A stretch of 64,000 nucleotides of DNA from Giardia intestinalis. Lineage: Eukaryota. Made by a program: the position numbers. Location: the NCBI GenBank assembly GCA_000002435.2, contig CM018793.1; one strand, 5' to 3'. How positions within the stretch are numbered: the stretch's first letter is position 1; every line of letters starts with the position of its first letter. Shown one piece after another: positions 42,001 to 48,000 of the stretch.

Positions 42001-45000
42001 AGGGTATGCATCAACCATTTTAGTTGCAATTAAATTGAAAATTTAAGCATGCCCCCCAAACCTGCCAAAAGTGATCCCTCGCAACCAGACGTTCTATGGT
42101 CAAAGGGGTACAATTTGGAGAAATTTGAAGAGAACAAGGATAAGTTTCCTCCTACACTCAAGATTGACAAGGGGGCATCAAAGTGTTTCTTTGAGGTCTA
42201 TAGTCAGTGCCTCGCAGCATTACAAATGGCACCGCTTCCCTGTCTTCAACTTGCTCTCAAAACAATAAAGCCTTGTGAACATATTCACATTCACTCTCAT
42301 GATATTGACAGCGCGTCTGCAACCGTTATCGGGTATGCATTAACAGAAGCAGCAGATGTTAGGGCGCTCACATTGACAGATGTACTTTTGGATTCTGAAG
42401 CAATCTTCGGATTTGCTAAATCCAATCCAAATATAATGAGTTTATCATTTGAACGCATGTGTATCAGCTCTGCCCTTTTAGATATGCTCTTCGAATCCTT
42501 GGGCTCTACACCGTTTGTCAGAAAACTCTCATTCCGTCAATGCAAGTTCCTAGACTTCGATAAGCTGTGCAAATATATATCCAGTCCACAAGCGTACGCT
42601 ATAACTCATCTGACAATAGCAAACTGCAGCCTAGGGACAACTGAACTGACTGCCCTAACAAATTCGCTTGCTGTTAGCGAGTCAACGTTCACACTAGATG
42701 CATATGATGCGCTCGAATGCCTCATGCATAAAAACTGTGGAGTTAAGTTCTTAAACCTTGAGGATAATGAATTAGACTCAGATCAGGTAATTCTGTTGTT
42801 AGAGTCCCTATTCAAGAAGCGCCAACTAAAGTCCCCAGAAATCCAGCTAGCATTTGTGAAAAAAGAGCTATGCTACGCATTACTCAATGCTATCCTTCTG
42901 CAGGACTGTCCACTCGACTTACCAGGCACTATCAGAAAAGTAGGTCGAATTCTTCCTTCATTCGAATCCGCCACAGAGACCTTAGCCACCAAGATAGCTG
43001 ACATAGTATCTGCCGGAAAGTCTCTCTGTTATCCACCAGCCAACACGGCTGGTGGATCTGCTGCTAAGGCGAAGCTGAAAGACGATGCCCCGCAACCACT
43101 CATGATGGCCAACACTGTTAGGGAATTTGTACAAAGTATACACCGAAGCAAGTCACTCATAGACATTACTGATGACGAGCTGCATGTAATAGCCGTTGCC
43201 TTGCCTCCATCAAATCTGCAATCAGTATCCTTTGAATACAGTCAGGTAGGAGAGTATGTGACACCGAACAATTCTATACTCGGGATAAATCTTAAGGGAA
43301 ATGAGATCGACCTAGACGATGTAGCAACTGTGAAGAGACTAGAAGGACTATTGCAGCATACATCGCTTTGCTATTTGGGAACGGATGCCAAGTTGTCATA
43401 TGCAGATGAGCAGACAGGAGGAGAAGAGCAAGTCAAGAAGGAAGACGTGCTCGCACTTATATTTGAGGAGAATCGGCGGCGGATGAGCTCTCTAGAGCAG
43501 CCATACCTTTATGAACCTTGCTCTGGTGTCCCGGCGAAAAAGAAGTAAGTGCTATCCTAGGTTGCAGCAGCTGTACGCTAGTGTATGTGAGATGCCATCC
43601 GGGGGTGTATCACTGTAAATCTACGCATTTTTTCCCGCCTCACTGCCTTGGATCGGTTCAATTCATCGAAAATCCGGCCCAGAACCTGCGCCTCTGTTTC
43701 TCCGGCAATAAATATAGCCCCTGGTGGAAGAACCATCTCGCTACGTTCTCGCTTGCTATCAGAATCACGGCCATAGTCAAGGTATAAGATTAGATCACTA
43801 CGCAGGATAGTCTGCGAGCTGCAAAGGACCCCGGTGCAAAGAACGCCTTTGTAACCCGCACGCTTAGCCTGTTGCGAAAGTGCAGCAACAAGCCCCTTGG
43901 AATATGTATACAAGGCTTGACTGTTCTTCAAGCATTCCATTTCTGTACTCATCAGTGTCATCTGGTCTCTAAGGGCTTTTTGAGCGATGGGGTGGTCACC
44001 GCAACTGAGCACAAACGTATCCCTTGTAAGCGTGAAGGTGCATGCTCTATCAAATGAAGACATCAAGTACCGAAGCCTGTTGTCGTCCACACTGATCTTG
44101 TGCCTCCCAGCATAATATGCGAGTCCCTGAAGAATATAATTTGTGTTGATATGGACCAGATTATATCTCTCCCCCACAGCAGCAAGAGAGTCAGCTGAGA
44201 TCTCTCCGAGTAGCGAGATTGCAAAGAAGCCATCACGGTTGATGGTGAATAACGTTAGTATCACTACGCTGAGGAGAAAATTGGCCGTGATTAGGAGCCC
44301 AGTGAACGTGAGCATGGCAAGGCAACGGGGCGACTTTTACTCTAATATGCCATATTGTCATAAAATATAAAAGATAAAAGTAAGTTTATTGAACAAATTC
44401 TGCAGCTGAGGAGTGCAGCCGAGTTATGGACATCATAGGCTCTCGAGAAATAGGAGATTTTGATCTTGATGAGGTAGAAGATTCCATCCGTAAATGTGAG
44501 GCATTTCTTGCCAACGAGGACTTTACTCTGGACTTCAGCCATCTTCCGATTGAAGCATCACTTCCCGGCACTGAGCAACAGCCGGTCTTATCTGCTCCTA
44601 CATATTCTGTCACAACTGACGATGGTGTAGGGTTGCTGAATAAGCGCATGGATGCAAATGCCTCGTTGTCCGTCTCAAAGAGTGAGAAGAGCTACAAGGA
44701 AGATGATGGGGTAAGGTTAGATAGTCAACCAGTACTAGAGATATTTCAGAAGAGTAGATCAGAATCTAAGAGGAATGCACCCAGCAAGCCTCTTATGCTG
44801 CCCAAGTCGGCATCTAGTGGAAGTATTCCTGATCGCCAGGCAGTCCCGATAGAAGAAAATCCACTTGTGAAGCGTACGATCAATCTTCTCCCTCGCAAGC
44901 GCGGGCAAGATAGACCGTCTGTCTCTTCCTATCATGAGCCCACTGTCAAAGTCGGGTCGGAATCTAATTCGATTACAGCAGAAGAAGCGCCAAAACCAGC

Positions 45001-48000
45001 CACTACAGATCCTCGAAGGGGCTCTGATGCAAAGGAGATGAGATCTAGTGTAGATAAGGAGGGTAGTACGGCGCTTATTAAAAACACCGCACTGGCCGCA
45101 CCTAGGAAACCAGCATCCCCCACACAAAACCGTCTAGCTGCAAACAGATCACCTCATAGCCAACAGCCTGGTGCAGCCGCTCAACGAAGTAATACACCAA
45201 AGCATAGGCCTCCCAAACTATCGCGTCCAGGAACACCAGACAGAATACCACGTTCTTCTTCATCAGGGATTCCTCGAGCAGCGTCGGCAAGGAGCAAAAT
45301 GGCAGCATCTATAGCCGAATCTCGCCTGGAGGCATACCTACGCGAAAAGGAGGAGCGTGAACTCAAGGAGTGTACATTTCATCCCAAAATATTGACAAAA
45401 AAGCACCCCAAGAAGGATTCAGAGAGAGAAGCGCCTGAAGATAGACTTAGAAACGAGGGAGAGAGAAAGCGGATAGAGCACGAGAAAATGCGTGTGTACA
45501 AAGAACGTGCTGAGTTCGAAGTTTGCACCTTCAAGCCAGAACTGTCGGCTCGCACCGAAAAGATAATGGCAAAGAAGAATATGAAGCCTATATATGAAAG
45601 GTATGCCGAAACCATGGAGCAGCACAGACAGAAAGTCGAAGAGCTTGCAGCTTTGGCAGAGGCTGAACAGTACTATCCCGAAATTGATGAGAAGGCTCGA
45701 ATGCGAAGAGATATACTGGCGCAGAAAGCACTGACGAGAAGTGGAATAGATCCATTTGCTCCCCCAGAAGAGCGCTTGTACAGTCCAGGAGCTAAGCGTG
45801 CCAATCTCAGAGTCGCAAAGGACAGTACACCACAGGATGCCAACGAGGCCATTGAATGCTCTTTCAAGCCACAAATTAATAAGGAAAGTATGGCTATAGC
45901 TCGAAAAAATAGTCAGCTTAGTGGGGATTTCTTTCAGAGACAGACATATTATAAAGACAAGAAGATGCGTCATATCCAAGCAATGGAGCGAGATGAGGCA
46001 TCTGCACTTACGTTTCAACCCAATATACGACGTGCGTCCTCGGCTGGAACGGGCGGTAAGAGACGAGAGTCAGATGGTAGCCCCACATTCCCGTGTGCCC
46101 CCAGCAGAGTAAGCGAGGATATAGATGGTGTGTCTGTGCATGAAAGACTTTACAGACGATCAATCTCTAGATCCAAAGGCACTGTGCATCAGCCAGAGCC
46201 ACAAGGTGTGCATGATGAGTGTCGTTTCATCCCTGAGATCAACCAGCACTCAAAGAACATAGGAAGAAAGTCGACAATTGAGGAATTATACAGAAATACT
46301 TTAGCAAGTAACAAGAAGGATGCTCTATGTAAGGTTATCGATGAAGAACAGCAGAAGGAGTGCACATTCAAGCCTACAATCCACTCTGACAAGGCCAAAT
46401 CGCACTACAATATCCATCGGCCAGAATCCTTGTTGGTCCAAATCGAGATGGAGCGGCAGCAGAAGGCAGTCAAACTAAACATGATGAAGAAGAAATTGGA
46501 ATATGATGAAGTGCAAACGTGCTCTTTCAGGCCTGAGATAAAAAGCACAGTGCCTCGAACCGTTTACAATGGCCCAACCGTCACGCAGGACGTGGATGAG
46601 GCATTTGGAAGCAGTATAAAGGGCTTAGGACGGTTCATGGAAAAGCAAGAGTTGGCAAGGAAAAAGGTGGAGGAACAAAAGCTTCGGGAAAGCAAGGTAT
46701 TTGGGCTCAATCCGTCAGGAAAGACAGGAAAGCCGTACACGATACCTCAGCCGTTTAACCTATCATATGAAATGAGCGCAAGGAAGTCTGCTTTTGAAAG
46801 AGATAAGATAGCCTCGGTCGCCCTCAAGGATTACACATTTCAACCCCAGACATCTGAAAAGCGTGTAAAGGACCTTGTTGCTCACATACTCAGTAATGAC
46901 GAGTGATATCTATCTCTTGATTAATGTAAACTACATGGCATGTCTTTCTCCCTGTTGGGAATTGATGCCCGGACTCTCTGTCTCGAATTAGTGCCGCTTG
47001 ATGACAGAGAATTGGCTGACCGGGCCGATAACTGGACCACCATAAAGGGCTGTCTCGTTGGGAAACGTGTCAATAGACGCGCTCTGCTTGCCCGAGGTCA
47101 GACCCTTTGACAGTTGCTGTTGGGGCTGTGCTAACGTTTCTGATTTAAACTCGTCAGTGATATTGGGAAGAATAGCAGCGACAGCCGCTGGGGACGCAGA
47201 CGGAGGAATTTGGAGGAAGGTAATGGCATTGTCAAGCTGCTCATAAAGCCGAGCCTGGCTAAGCAGATACTTTCCATAGTCTGAACTGGCAAGTGTCTTT
47301 TTGCAGTGTGTTGAGGCATATTGGATTGTCTGTAGGTAGTTAGACATGGGCGCGATTTTTTAAATGTCCAACGGCAAACAGTTCTCTGGCACCTTGATTC
47401 TGACGCTGTCCAGCTCTGAGGAGATAGGTATCCTGATAAAGTCTCTCCAGGGAGGTGTTTCTCTTGACGCCGCAGATACTGTTACCTTTTCTGTTGACGA
47501 TACAACCTTGACAGTTGCAATGCATGCTCCTACGCTGAAGCAGCTTCGAAAAATGTATGGATCTTATTGCGAGGCGGCTGACCTGGTTCTAGAAACGATG
47601 TCTCGACTTGGAAGAACAACTGTTAAGGCCTAGTCTACTGTTGAGAACTAGCAGATATAAATGTGTTGGTTTACTTTTAATTTCAACCTCTTCGAGAGCT
47701 GTAAATGGATGTCCAAGGGCTCTTTTGAGGAGGTTGCAACGTATCTCCTATCTCTACACTCTAGTTAACAATCCTTACTAAGATTGGTTTAATACATATT
47801 CTATCAATTGTAATAGTAAGCAGCATAAAAAAGATTGTACAGGAAGTCAATTCACTACCGCCTTCGTTAAAGTTAAAACATAATATCTGGGTCTTCTACA
47901 GCGCACTCAATGATATCTGAGTGTGGTTCTGCCCCCTTCCCCTGTTGGCGCTCCGCCTCTGCAGCTTCACGCCTTCCATCTGCCACCTTCTTTATACGAG

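What the first reader, a model, noticed from the sequence alone, without database searches (positions are those of the whole stretch)
44426..46906. Protein with eight dispersed C[TS]F[KR]P-x-[IL] motifs
Copies of E/V-C-T/S-F-K/R-P-x-I/L occur eight times (ECTFHPKIL, VCTFKPEL, ECSFKPQI, LTFQPNI, ECRFIPEI, ECTFKPTI, TCSFRPEI, YTFQPQT). They are separated by 30-70 aa of Lys/Glu/Arg-rich sequence. The pattern resembles the short aromatic-basic-Pro repeats (FKARP-like) of TPX2/FAM161/SAXO-type microtubule-binding proteins. This suggests a candidate microtubule or axonemal lattice binder. That is relevant because Giardia has eight flagella and a ventral disc.
Basis: partly seen in the sequence, partly recalled or inferred. 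Interest (0 to 1): 0.55.

Follow-up and report, generated by a model that had tools for sequence, protein, structure and literature searches.

The report
Conserved TPX2-like nine-repeat microtubule-binder candidate
This Giardia gene (GL50803_17011) belongs to an unnamed protein family found across flagellated eukaryotes, built from nine ~52-residue helix-loop repeats plus one copy of the tubulin-gripping "ridge" motif of the spindle protein TPX2, so it is most likely an elongated protein that lies along microtubules, though nobody has tested this.

Summary
ORF 44426-46906 (+) is Giardia duodenalis GL50803_17011 (826 aa) and carries the eight listed [C/L/Y][T/S/R]F-x-P-x-[I/L/T] motifs. Shuffles expect 0.06. 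All eight are conserved in other assemblages and in G. muris.

The protein is not Giardia-specific. A profile of residues 296-826 finds 1229 proteins (49 at E<=1e-30), many collinear over the full length. Named members come from metamonads, a jakobid, green algae, mosses, a liverwort, a fern, oomycetes, ciliates, apicomplexans, rhizarians and a haptophyte. No named hit is from an animal, fungus or seed plant. All are annotated 'hypothetical' and none has a Pfam domain.

The family has nine mutually similar ~52-aa repeats, each a long charged helix followed by a loop carrying the motif. Giardia's third copy is degenerate. Spacing is conserved.

One further element, PYTIPQPFNLS (aa 770-780), matches TPX2 as the top hit in the whole PDB (E=3e-6). 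The match falls exactly on TPX2's cryo-EM 'ridge', which binds between alpha- and beta-tubulin. The CTFxP motif profile hits only one PDB protein, Toxoplasma CIP3, which wraps conoid-fibre protofilaments.

TPX2, FAM161 and SAXO Pfam models do not match. Best reading: a lattice-binding MAP that works like TPX2, probably on cilium- or centriole-linked microtubules. This is untested.

The parts
44426..46906 (+). Whole ORF, 826 aa, identical to Giardia duodenalis GL50803_17011 (hypothetical protein)
44456..44521 (+). N-terminal acidic helix motif (aa 11-32, DFDLDEVEDSIRKCEAFLANED). The family consensus is sLdqVEedIRrcEeyLa and it sits at the extreme N-terminus of many members
   Evidence: Found in 38 family sequences, including Dysnectes, Spironucleus, Andalucia, Bryopsis, Aphanomyces, Bigelowiella, Hondaea and Ceratopteris. 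No PDB relative
44546..45310 (+). Basic, Ser/Pro/Thr-rich linker that is poorly conserved (aa 41-295, pI 10.2). It is about 160 aa shorter in G. muris
45311..46903 (+). Family-defining region (aa 296-826): nine tandem ~52-aa helix-loop repeats, a ridge element and a C-terminal helix
45371..45394 (+). Repeat-1 loop motif CTFHPKIL (aa 316-323)
45524..45547 (+). Repeat-2 loop motif CTFKPELS (aa 367-374)
45671..45694 (+). Repeat-3 loop, degenerate in Giardia: YYPEIDEK (aa 416-423). It aligns with the family's LTFxPxIN and only the Pro is kept
45857..45880 (+). Repeat-4 loop motif CSFKPQIN (aa 478-485)
46007..46030 (+). Repeat-5 loop motif LTFQPNIR (aa 528-535)
46220..46243 (+). Repeat-6 loop motif CRFIPEIN (aa 599-606)
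46361..46384 (+). Repeat-7 loop motif CTFKPTIH (aa 646-653)
46520..46543 (+). Repeat-8 loop motif CSFRPEIK (aa 699-706)
46733..46774 (+). TPX2-type 'ridge' element PYTIPQPFNLSYEM (aa 770-783). The family logo is [Y/V/F]-T-[I/V]-P-x-P-F-x-L-[S/H]
   Evidence: Top PDB hits are human TPX2 residues 299-315 (E=3e-6) and Xenopus TPX2 GHTVPKPFNLS (E=3.4e-6)
46832..46855 (+). Repeat-9 loop motif YTFQPQTS (aa 803-810). It reads CTFRPRTS in G. muris and ECTFxPxT in the family
46853..46903 (+). Conserved C-terminal helix SEKRVKDLVAHILSNDE (family consensus NRxLIxxIL)

Best explanation
GL50803_17011 is the Giardia member of an ancient, unnamed eukaryotic protein family that is non-globular and elongated. 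My best reading is that it binds directly along the microtubule lattice, most likely on stable cilium-, basal-body- or centriole-associated microtubules.

Architecture (shown):
- an acidic N-terminal helix;
- a variable basic linker, not assessed for disorder;
- nine tandem ~52-aa repeats, each a long charged helix followed by an extended loop with consensus [C/Y/L]-T-F-x-P-x-I-N-x-x-S-x-x-L;
- one TPX2-type ridge loop (T-[IV]-P-x-P-F-x-L-S) between repeats 8 and 9;
- a C-terminal helix.

Mechanism (inferred):
- The ridge Phe (F777) inserts into the pocket at a longitudinal alpha/beta-tubulin interface, as F307 of TPX2 does.
- The nine regularly spaced F-x-P loops dock into successive equivalent sites.
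- The charged helices act as spacers between them.
- The protein therefore staples tubulin subunits together and stabilises, or measures, a stretch of lattice.
- The N-terminal helix probably recruits a partner.

Whether it sits outside the microtubule or in the lumen is unknown.
For: Shown:
- The motifs are far beyond chance and are conserved.
- An exhaustive HMMER search with residues 296-826 gives 1229 hits at E<=1e-3 and 49 at E<=1e-30, many covering profile positions ~4-530.
- The nine repeat units are mutually similar by profile-profile comparison. Most pairs score 90-97% probability and many alignments span 45-55 columns.
- Inter-motif spacing is conserved over 76 members: medians 51, 51, 56, 52.5, 55, 47, 58 and 94 aa, with SD 3-8.
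- AlphaFold gives pTM 0.20 with confident long helices (pLDDT 80-93) alternating with coil. Every motif lies in coil directly after a long helix, so there is no compact fold.
- The 22-column ridge profile searched against 177,635 PDB sequences returns TPX2 as its top two hits (E=3e-6 and 3.4e-6). It aligns to human residues 299-315. This is the cryo-EM ridge 300-GCTIVKPFNLSQ-311, whose F307 sits in a pocket formed by alpha- and beta-tubulin (PMC7551519).
- The 28-column motif profile returns only Toxoplasma CIP3 (E=6.7e-6, four copies). In the 9Y9Z structure CIP3 is an extended 'glue' that wraps protofilaments 2-5 of the conoid fibre and passes through the tubulin wall (PMC12819142).
- TPX2 itself has nine 45-60-aa repeats of the form loop-charged helix-loop (PMC7551519).

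Inferred: the named family members come from organisms that build flagella. Among land plants only mosses, a liverwort and a fern appear.
Against: - There is no experimental datum for this protein or for any family member. I found no localisation or proteomic record.
- Similarity to TPX2 is limited to a ~12-18-residue linear motif. It does not extend into the following helix or loop and could be convergent.
- Whole-family comparisons with TPX2 and with Pfam are negative.
- The CIP3 link rests on short motifs. I could not check whether those CIP3 residues are modelled or whether they touch tubulin.
- No family member appears among the sequences of solved structures other than CIP3. That argues against a stoichiometric, stably bound axonemal inner protein in the organisms solved so far.
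- The phyletic pattern is based on about 35 named hits out of 1229, and Botryococcus is not known to me as a flagellate.
- K/E/R-rich helices are also common in non-microtubule scaffolds.
Confidence: 0.55

Rival explanations
1. It is Giardia's true TPX2 orthologue: a spindle-assembly and microtubule-nucleation factor that works with Aurora kinase, not a cilium- or centriole-linked stabiliser.
For: It carries a near-perfect TPX2 ridge and has nine repeats of TPX2-like length. A published phyletic table lists one Giardia TPX2 homologue, UniProt A8BSY2 (PMC10499817 Supplementary Data 1). I could not map that accession to a gene, so it may be this one.
Against: - Pfam TPX2 and TPX2_importin models do not match this protein or 33 relatives.
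- hhalign against human TPX2 gives 1.5% probability.
- FKA+/-PxP loops are absent, and the longer profile does not extend beyond the ridge.
- The conserved N-terminal helix has no similarity to the Aurora-binding N-terminus of TPX2, which is present in the PDB.
- TPX2 occurs in seed plants, Dictyostelium and Cryptosporidium, whereas no named member of this family comes from such organisms.
Confidence: 0.12
2. It is a non-microtubule scaffold. The charged helices are single-alpha-helix or coiled-coil spacers, and the F-x-P loops bind some other repeated partner, for example an EF-hand or centrin-like protein, or a nuclear or membrane-skeleton component.
For: The same loop motif occurs in unrelated architectures, some with weak EF-hand or WW matches. 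There is no direct evidence of tubulin contact. K/E/R-rich helices are generic. The ridge motif of TPX2 also overlaps an importin-alpha binding site (3KND hit; PMC7551519).
Against: The only two solved proteins recovered by the two motif profiles are both bound to tubulin lattices. The phyletic pattern follows flagella.
Confidence: 0.2
3. The motifs are chance recurrences in a low-complexity charged protein and have no specific function.
For: The protein is rich in Ser, Glu, Lys and Arg.
Against: Shuffles expect 0.06 copies against 8 observed. Motif positions, number and spacing are conserved from Giardia to ferns, oomycetes and ciliates. The motif Pro is invariant and the Phe is kept in 137 of 143 repeat units.
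Confidence: 0.01

Closest known systems
TPX2 (Targeting protein for Xklp2; PDB 6BJC on microtubules, 3KND with importin-alpha)
   Same: The ridge motif is shared: Giardia YTIPQPFNLS against human CTIVKPFNLS and Xenopus HTVPKPFNLS. It is the top PDB hit for the family's ridge profile. The overall form is also shared: nine repeats of about 45-60 aa, each loop-charged helix-loop.
   Different: - This family has one ridge, whereas TPX2 has about six ridge-like loops.
- The second loop is [C/Y/L]TFxPxI(N)xxS, not FKA+/-PxP.
- There is no Pfam TPX2 or TPX2_importin match.
- There is no Aurora-binding N-terminus.
- No wedge helix was identified.
- The taxon distribution is restricted to flagellates.
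FAM161A (UPF0564; centriole inner-scaffold MAP, predicted TPX2 homologue, PMC7551519)
   Same: It is a TPX2-like loop-helix-loop repeat protein. It is linked to centrioles and basal bodies, which is the kind of distribution this family shows.
   Different: No UPF0564 match at E<=10 in this protein or in 33 relatives. FAM161A has about three repeats with FKA+/-PxP loops. FAM161A is present in animals, and no named member of this family is.
Toxoplasma gondii CIP3 (TGME49_225020; PDB 9Y9Z chain 63), a conoid-fibre protein
   Same: It is the only solved protein with multiple copies of the loop motif: YQFAPTLCEKSREI, FFKPYILEYSRKL, CTFHPAVNPYPKYL and ECTFQPNIHKF. It is an extended protein that wraps tubulin protofilaments.
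   Different: It is not an orthologue. It has four copies rather than nine, the family-profile E-value is only 1.4e-4, and it lacks the ridge, the N-terminal helix and the C-terminal helix. It is restricted to coccidians.
MAP6/SAXO (STOP axonemal) Mn-module proteins
   Same: They are repeated short aromatic/Pro-containing modules in cilium-associated microtubule stabilisers. This resemblance is from my own knowledge and was not tested beyond Pfam.
   Different: No Pfam hit of any kind. The motif sequence and the helix-loop repeat form differ.

Membership tests
Unnamed nine-repeat CTFxP family (Giardia GL50803_17011, Spironucleus SS50377_20068, Volvox VOLCADRAFT_104176, and others) | Collinear full-length match over the ~530-aa repeat region | tested here: met
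   44 of the listed hits cover profile positions <=20 to >=515. One search gives the alignment A4
Unnamed nine-repeat CTFxP family (Giardia GL50803_17011, Spironucleus SS50377_20068, Volvox VOLCADRAFT_104176, and others) | Nine F-x-P loop positions with conserved spacing, plus one T-[IV]-P-x-P-F-x-L ridge and a C-terminal NRxLIxxIL helix | tested here: met
   Giardia keeps eight canonical loops and one degenerate loop (repeat 3)
Unnamed nine-repeat CTFxP family (Giardia GL50803_17011, Spironucleus SS50377_20068, Volvox VOLCADRAFT_104176, and others) | N-terminal helix LdxVExxIRxcExxL | tested here: met
TPX2 (Pfam PF06886 TPX2, PF12214 TPX2_importin) | Match to the Pfam family models | tested here: not met
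   no hit at E<=10 for the Giardia protein or for 24 aligned relatives, and none at E<=0.01 for 10 full-length relatives
TPX2 (Pfam PF06886 TPX2, PF12214 TPX2_importin) | Ridge loop (PF+/-hydrophobic; human 300-311) that binds the alpha/beta-tubulin interface | tested here: met
   (E=3e-6 and 3.4e-6, aligned on residues 299-315). The ridge definition comes from PMC7551519. Only the sequence is met; binding was not tested
TPX2 (Pfam PF06886 TPX2, PF12214 TPX2_importin) | FKA+/-PxP loops after the charged helices | tested here: not met
   the motif profile does not hit TPX2, and the ridge-helix-loop profile aligns through the ridge only
TPX2 (Pfam PF06886 TPX2, PF12214 TPX2_importin) | About nine tandem repeats of 45-60 aa, each loop-charged helix-loop | tested here: met
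   compared with PMC7551519. The resemblance is of form; common descent is not shown
TPX2 (Pfam PF06886 TPX2, PF12214 TPX2_importin) | Overall profile similarity to TPX2 | tested here: not met
   hmmsearch, -12.7 bits; hhalign probability 1.5%. Both used a human TPX2 sequence recalled from memory, checked only at residues 300-311 and 334-335. This is a single sequence, so the test has low power
TPX2 (Pfam PF06886 TPX2, PF12214 TPX2_importin) | N-terminal Aurora-A-binding segment | tested here: not met
   the N-terminal helix profile finds no TPX2 chain in the PDB
TPX2 (Pfam PF06886 TPX2, PF12214 TPX2_importin) | Wedge helix (human 323-341, F334/H335) | not tested
   No equivalent was searched for specifically
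FAM161 (Pfam PF10595 UPF0564) | Match to the UPF0564 model | tested here: not met
MAP6/SAXO (Pfam STOP; Mn modules) | Match to the STOP model or Mn modules | tested here: not met
   no Pfam family at E<=10. Mn modules were not searched for by a dedicated pattern
CIP3-type conoid-fibre proteins | Orthology to TGME49_225020 | tested here: not met
   E=1.4e-4 over about 130 aa only. Four shared motif copies indicate a shared module, not orthology
Microtubule-associated proteins in general | Direct binding to tubulin polymer, and localisation to microtubule arrays | not testable with these tools
   No record was found in the Giardia datasets I searched

The most novel reading that the evidence does not exclude
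The [C/Y/L]-T-F-x-P-x-I-N-x-x-S-x-x-L loop is a previously undescribed, ancient tubulin-lattice-binding linear motif. This nine-repeat family would be a LECA-era, cilium- or centriole-linked cousin of TPX2 and FAM161 that acts as a lattice staple or molecular ruler. It would have been retained from Giardia to ferns and lost with flagella, and also lost or unrecognisably diverged in animals and fungi. CIP3 in the Toxoplasma conoid would then be a lineage-specific re-use of the same module, and its binding mode would already be visible in PDB 9Y9Z.
Probability: 0.35. Interest if true: 0.7.

Novelty: new variant of a known kind. Interest (0 to 1): 0.55.

Why it matters
About 40% of Giardia's proteome is unannotated, and its eight flagella, median body and ventral disc depend on unusually stable microtubules whose stabilisers are mostly unknown.

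This gene turns out to be a member of a large family with no Pfam model, spread across most eukaryotic supergroups. Its distribution follows flagella, and it joins two separately known tubulin-binding stories: the TPX2 ridge and the Toxoplasma conoid protein CIP3.

If the loops do bind tubulin, this defines a new reusable microtubule-binding module. It also gives a candidate structural protein for basal bodies or axonemes in many protists, algae and the sperm of lower plants. The claim is directly testable by tagging the protein, by microtubule pelleting assays, and by inspecting an existing cryo-EM model.

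Tried and rejected
1. Pfam on the protein, on 10 full-length relatives and on 24 aligned relatives gave no meaningful family.
2. A word-indexed search with a 14-unit Giardia repeat profile found only 32 candidates and one trivial hit.
3. PDB searches with the whole protein and with the Giardia-only profile found nothing.
4. Whole-family comparison with a recalled human TPX2 sequence was not significant by hmmsearch or hhalign.
5. I extended the ridge profile through the following helix to motif 9, to see whether the TPX2 match lengthens. 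It does not.
6. The N-terminal helix profile against the PDB, as a test for an Aurora-binding TPX2-like N-terminus, found nothing.
7. Literature searches for the gene ID and for the motif string found no relevant paper.
8. I checked supplements of the Giardia localisation atlas, the disc proteome and the encystation proteome, plus the main texts of the basal-body review and the disc-associated-protein preprint. The gene is not mentioned in any of them.
9. I tried to map UniProt A8BSY2, listed as Giardia 'TPX2' in PMC10499817, to a gene. This failed.
10. Neighbouring ORFs are uninformative. Only a V-ATPase subunit D was recognised.
11. I did not run a fold search, because the model has pTM 0.20 and any matches would be meaningless.

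Full report
**Observation.** The window holds an 826-codon ORF at 44426-46906 on the + strand. Its product is 100% identical to hypothetical protein GL50803_0017011 of Giardia duodenalis. In 20,000 shuffles of the protein, [TSR]F.P.[ILT] is expected 0.056 times (maximum 2) against 8 observed. C[TSR]F.P is expected 0.004 times against 6 observed, and 6 of the 9 cysteines lie in the motif. A six-frame scan of the whole 64-kb window finds a related motif pattern ten times, seven of them in this ORF. Five of the seven gaps fit the stated 30-70 aa. The two long gaps are explained below.

**Conservation within Giardia.** Orthologues from other assemblages (82-87% identity) and two G. muris-type proteins (44-47%) keep every motif. 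Across assemblages the linker (aa 41-295) is 64-73% identical, the C-terminal 531 aa are 89-93% identical, and the motif residues are 95-97% identical. Against G. muris the figures are 35%, 50% and 64%.

**The protein is not Giardia-specific.**
- Pfam gives nothing at E<=10, and a sequence search of the PDB gives nothing.
- An exhaustive HMMER search of 1.84 billion representative proteins, using a profile of aa 296-826, returned 1229 proteins at E<=1e-3, 391 at E<=1e-10 and 49 at E<=1e-30.
- Among the 156 sequences retrieved, 44 match collinearly from profile position <=20 to >=515. These typically carry 6-10 motif-like sites.
- Named members come from Spironucleus and Dysnectes (metamonads) and Andalucia (a jakobid).
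- Green-algal members are Volvox, Astrephomene, Haematococcus, Tetraselmis, Bryopsis, Cymbomonas and Botryococcus.
- Land-plant members are two mosses, a liverwort and the fern Ceratopteris.
- The remaining named members are three oomycetes, the thraustochytrid Hondaea, the ciliates Blepharisma and Stentor, the apicomplexan Digyalum, Amoebophrya, two chlorarachniophytes and Prymnesium.
- All are annotated as hypothetical or uncharacterised, and none has a Pfam domain.
- No named hit is from an animal, fungus, amoebozoan or seed plant.
- From my own knowledge, nearly all of these organisms make flagella at some stage, and among land plants only those with flagellated sperm appear. Botryococcus is a possible exception.
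- Only about 35 of the hits carry names, so this pattern is suggestive and not established.

**Anatomy of the family.**
- A 24-sequence alignment (A4) shows nine positions with an invariant or nearly invariant Pro preceded by Phe, not eight. Giardia's third position has decayed to YYPEIDEK (aa 416-423), which explains the 111-aa gap.
- Pooling 143 repeat units gives the logo E-rich helix, then [C 85/Y 20/L 18/F 7]-[T 104/S 21]-F(137)-[K/Q/R]-P(143)-x-[I/T/V/L]-[N/S/G]-x-x-S-x-[R/K]-[L/I]-[A/V/L]. The Cys is therefore one option for a hydrophobic position and is unlikely to be a metal or disulphide ligand.
- Cutting the alignment into nine units and comparing them profile against profile gives 90-97% probability for most pairs, often over 45-55 columns. 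These are true tandem repeats of about 52 aa, not isolated short motifs.
- Spacing between successive motif prolines is conserved in 76 non-identical members: medians 51, 51, 56, 52.5, 55, 47, 58 and 94 aa, with SD 3-8.
- AlphaFold2 on A4 gives pTM 0.20 and mean pLDDT 66. Confident long helices (block pLDDT 80-93) alternate with coil, and each motif lies in coil immediately after a long helix, frequently followed by a short helix. The protein is elongated and non-globular.
- Two further elements are family-wide. One is an acidic N-terminal helix, LdxVExxIRxcExxL (Giardia aa 11-32), found in 38 sequences. The other is a C-terminal helix, NRxLIxxIL.
- In Giardia a basic linker (pI 10.2) rich in Ser/Thr/Pro joins the N-terminal helix to the repeats.

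**The extra element and TPX2.**
- The 94-aa interval between repeats 8 and 9 contains [Y/V/F]-T-[I/V]-P-x-P-F-x-L-[S/H]. In Giardia this is PYTIPQPFNLS, aa 770-780. Pro and Phe are invariant in 78 sequences.
- A 22-column profile of this element (A6), searched against all 177,635 distinct PDB sequences, returns TPX2 as its two best hits. Human TPX2 (6BJC) scores E=3e-6, with the best stretch at residues 299-315 and weaker stretches at 591-601 and 656-671. Xenopus TPX2 (3KND, GHTVPKPFNLSKGKRKHE) scores E=3.4e-6.
- Residues 300-GCTIVKPFNLSQ-311 are the 'ridge' seen by cryo-EM. It is an extended loop that runs along a protofilament, with F307 in a pocket formed by alpha- and beta-tubulin. The other two stretches are TPX2's ridge-like repeats (PMC7551519, quoting Zhang et al. 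2017).
- The same paper states that TPX2 has nine repeats of 45-60 residues, of the form loop (PF+/-hydrophobic), charged helix of about 25 aa, then loop (FKA+/-PxP). It also states that FAM161A shares this form. The Giardia family has the same number, length and form of repeats.

**Limits of the TPX2 link.**
- No Pfam TPX2, TPX2_importin or UPF0564 hit occurs in this protein or in 33 relatives.
- The family HMM scores a human TPX2 sequence at -12.7 bits, and hhalign gives 1.5% probability. That sequence was recalled from memory and verified only at residues 300-311 and 334-335.
- A 47-column profile running from the ridge through the helix to motif 9 still aligns to TPX2 only through the ridge.
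- The motif profile does not hit TPX2.
- The N-terminal helix has no PDB relative, so there is no sign of an Aurora-binding segment.
- I therefore file the protein as working like TPX2, not as a member of the TPX2 family.

**The repeated motif and CIP3.** Three different profiles each recover a single meaningful PDB protein: Toxoplasma CIP3, TGME49_225020, chain 63 of 9Y9Z. The profiles were the Giardia units, the whole family and the 143-unit core. Their E-values were 1.4e-3, 1.4e-4 and 6.7e-6, with four motif copies found. According to the structure paper, CIP3 is an extended 'glue' that wraps protofilaments 2-5 of the tubulin-based conoid fibre, bridges the seam and passes through the tubulin wall (PMC12819142; PMC12905489). 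CIP3 is restricted to coccidians and is not an orthologue. The same loop also occurs in other non-orthologous protist proteins, so it behaves as a reusable module. I could not inspect the coordinates to see whether the motif residues contact tubulin.

**Interpretation.** The best-supported reading, at about 0.55 confidence, is an elongated lattice-binding microtubule-associated protein. The single ridge would anchor at a longitudinal tubulin interface as in TPX2. The nine evenly spaced F-x-P loops would dock at successive sites, and the charged helices would act as spacers. The N-terminal helix would recruit a partner. The flagellate-restricted distribution points to cilium, basal-body or centriole microtubules.

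The family profile finds no member in the PDB apart from CIP3. From my own knowledge, the PDB includes axoneme structures from Chlamydomonas and Tetrahymena. This argues against an abundant axonemal inner protein and leaves basal bodies, rootlets, tips or cytoplasmic arrays open. All steps beyond the sequence anatomy are inference.

**Rivals.**
- A genuine TPX2 orthologue acting in spindle nucleation (0.12).
- A non-microtubule scaffold whose loops bind another partner (0.2).
- Chance (<=0.01, refuted).

One loose end bears on the first rival. A published table lists a Giardia TPX2 homologue, UniProt A8BSY2, and I could not map that accession to a gene.

**Published evidence.** I found no mention of GL50803_17011 in the main text of any paper in the library. 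It is also absent from the supplements of the 608-protein Giardia localisation atlas, the ventral-disc proteome and the encystation proteome, and from the main texts of the basal-body review and the disc-associated-protein preprint. The motif string itself is not discussed in any paper in the library.

**Verdict.** This is a new variant of a known kind: a family without a Pfam model or a name that I could find, spread across eukaryotes, built like TPX2/FAM161 but with its own loop motif. Interest is moderate to good (0.55). It is a clean, testable lead supported by two independent structural precedents, but so far it rests on computation alone.

Noticed in passing
window 47873-48679 (-): The ORF two genes downstream is a V-type ATPase subunit D (Pfam ATP-synt_D, E=1.3e-45). 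The three nearer neighbours (42049-43548 +, 43578-44315 -, 46988-47347 -) have no Pfam domain.
   Followed up: partly
window 44759-45127 (-) and 45419-46018 (-): Two antisense ORFs of 122 and 199 aa lie wholly inside the gene. They start with TTG and look like by-products of the coding strand's composition, not genes.
   Followed up: no
PDB 7N6G/7SQC chain 3F (Chlamydomonas FAP99), residues 232-242: The ridge profile's third hit is TVPQPFNLTQP in FAP99, which is deposited with 7N6G/7SQC. From my own knowledge these are Chlamydomonas central-apparatus structures. The E-value is 0.92, so it is not significant, but it hints that TPX2-type ridges may be used by other ciliary MAPs.
   Followed up: no
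window 44456-44521 (aa 11-32): A short acidic helix, DFDLDEVEDSIRKCEAFLANED, is conserved at the extreme N-terminus of family members from at least five supergroups. It has no relative in the PDB, and its partner is unknown.
   Followed up: partly
proteins P0214, P0233, P0240, P0226-P0228 (related hits, not in the window): The CTFxPxINxxS loop occurs in two to four copies in non-orthologous protist proteins. Some have weak, sub-threshold EF-hand or WW matches, so the loop seems to be a mobile module and not a feature private to one family.
   Followed up: partly
family N-terminal regions (for example P0029, P0023, P0045, P0165, P0175): Many non-Giardia members carry a second conserved N-terminal segment, RRKEILxKLxxER, between the N-terminal helix and the repeats. 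I did not see it in the Giardia protein.
   Followed up: no
PMC10499817, Supplementary Data 1: A phyletic table lists a single Giardia 'TPX2' homologue as UniProt A8BSY2, without a gene name. It may or may not be GL50803_17011.
   Followed up: partly
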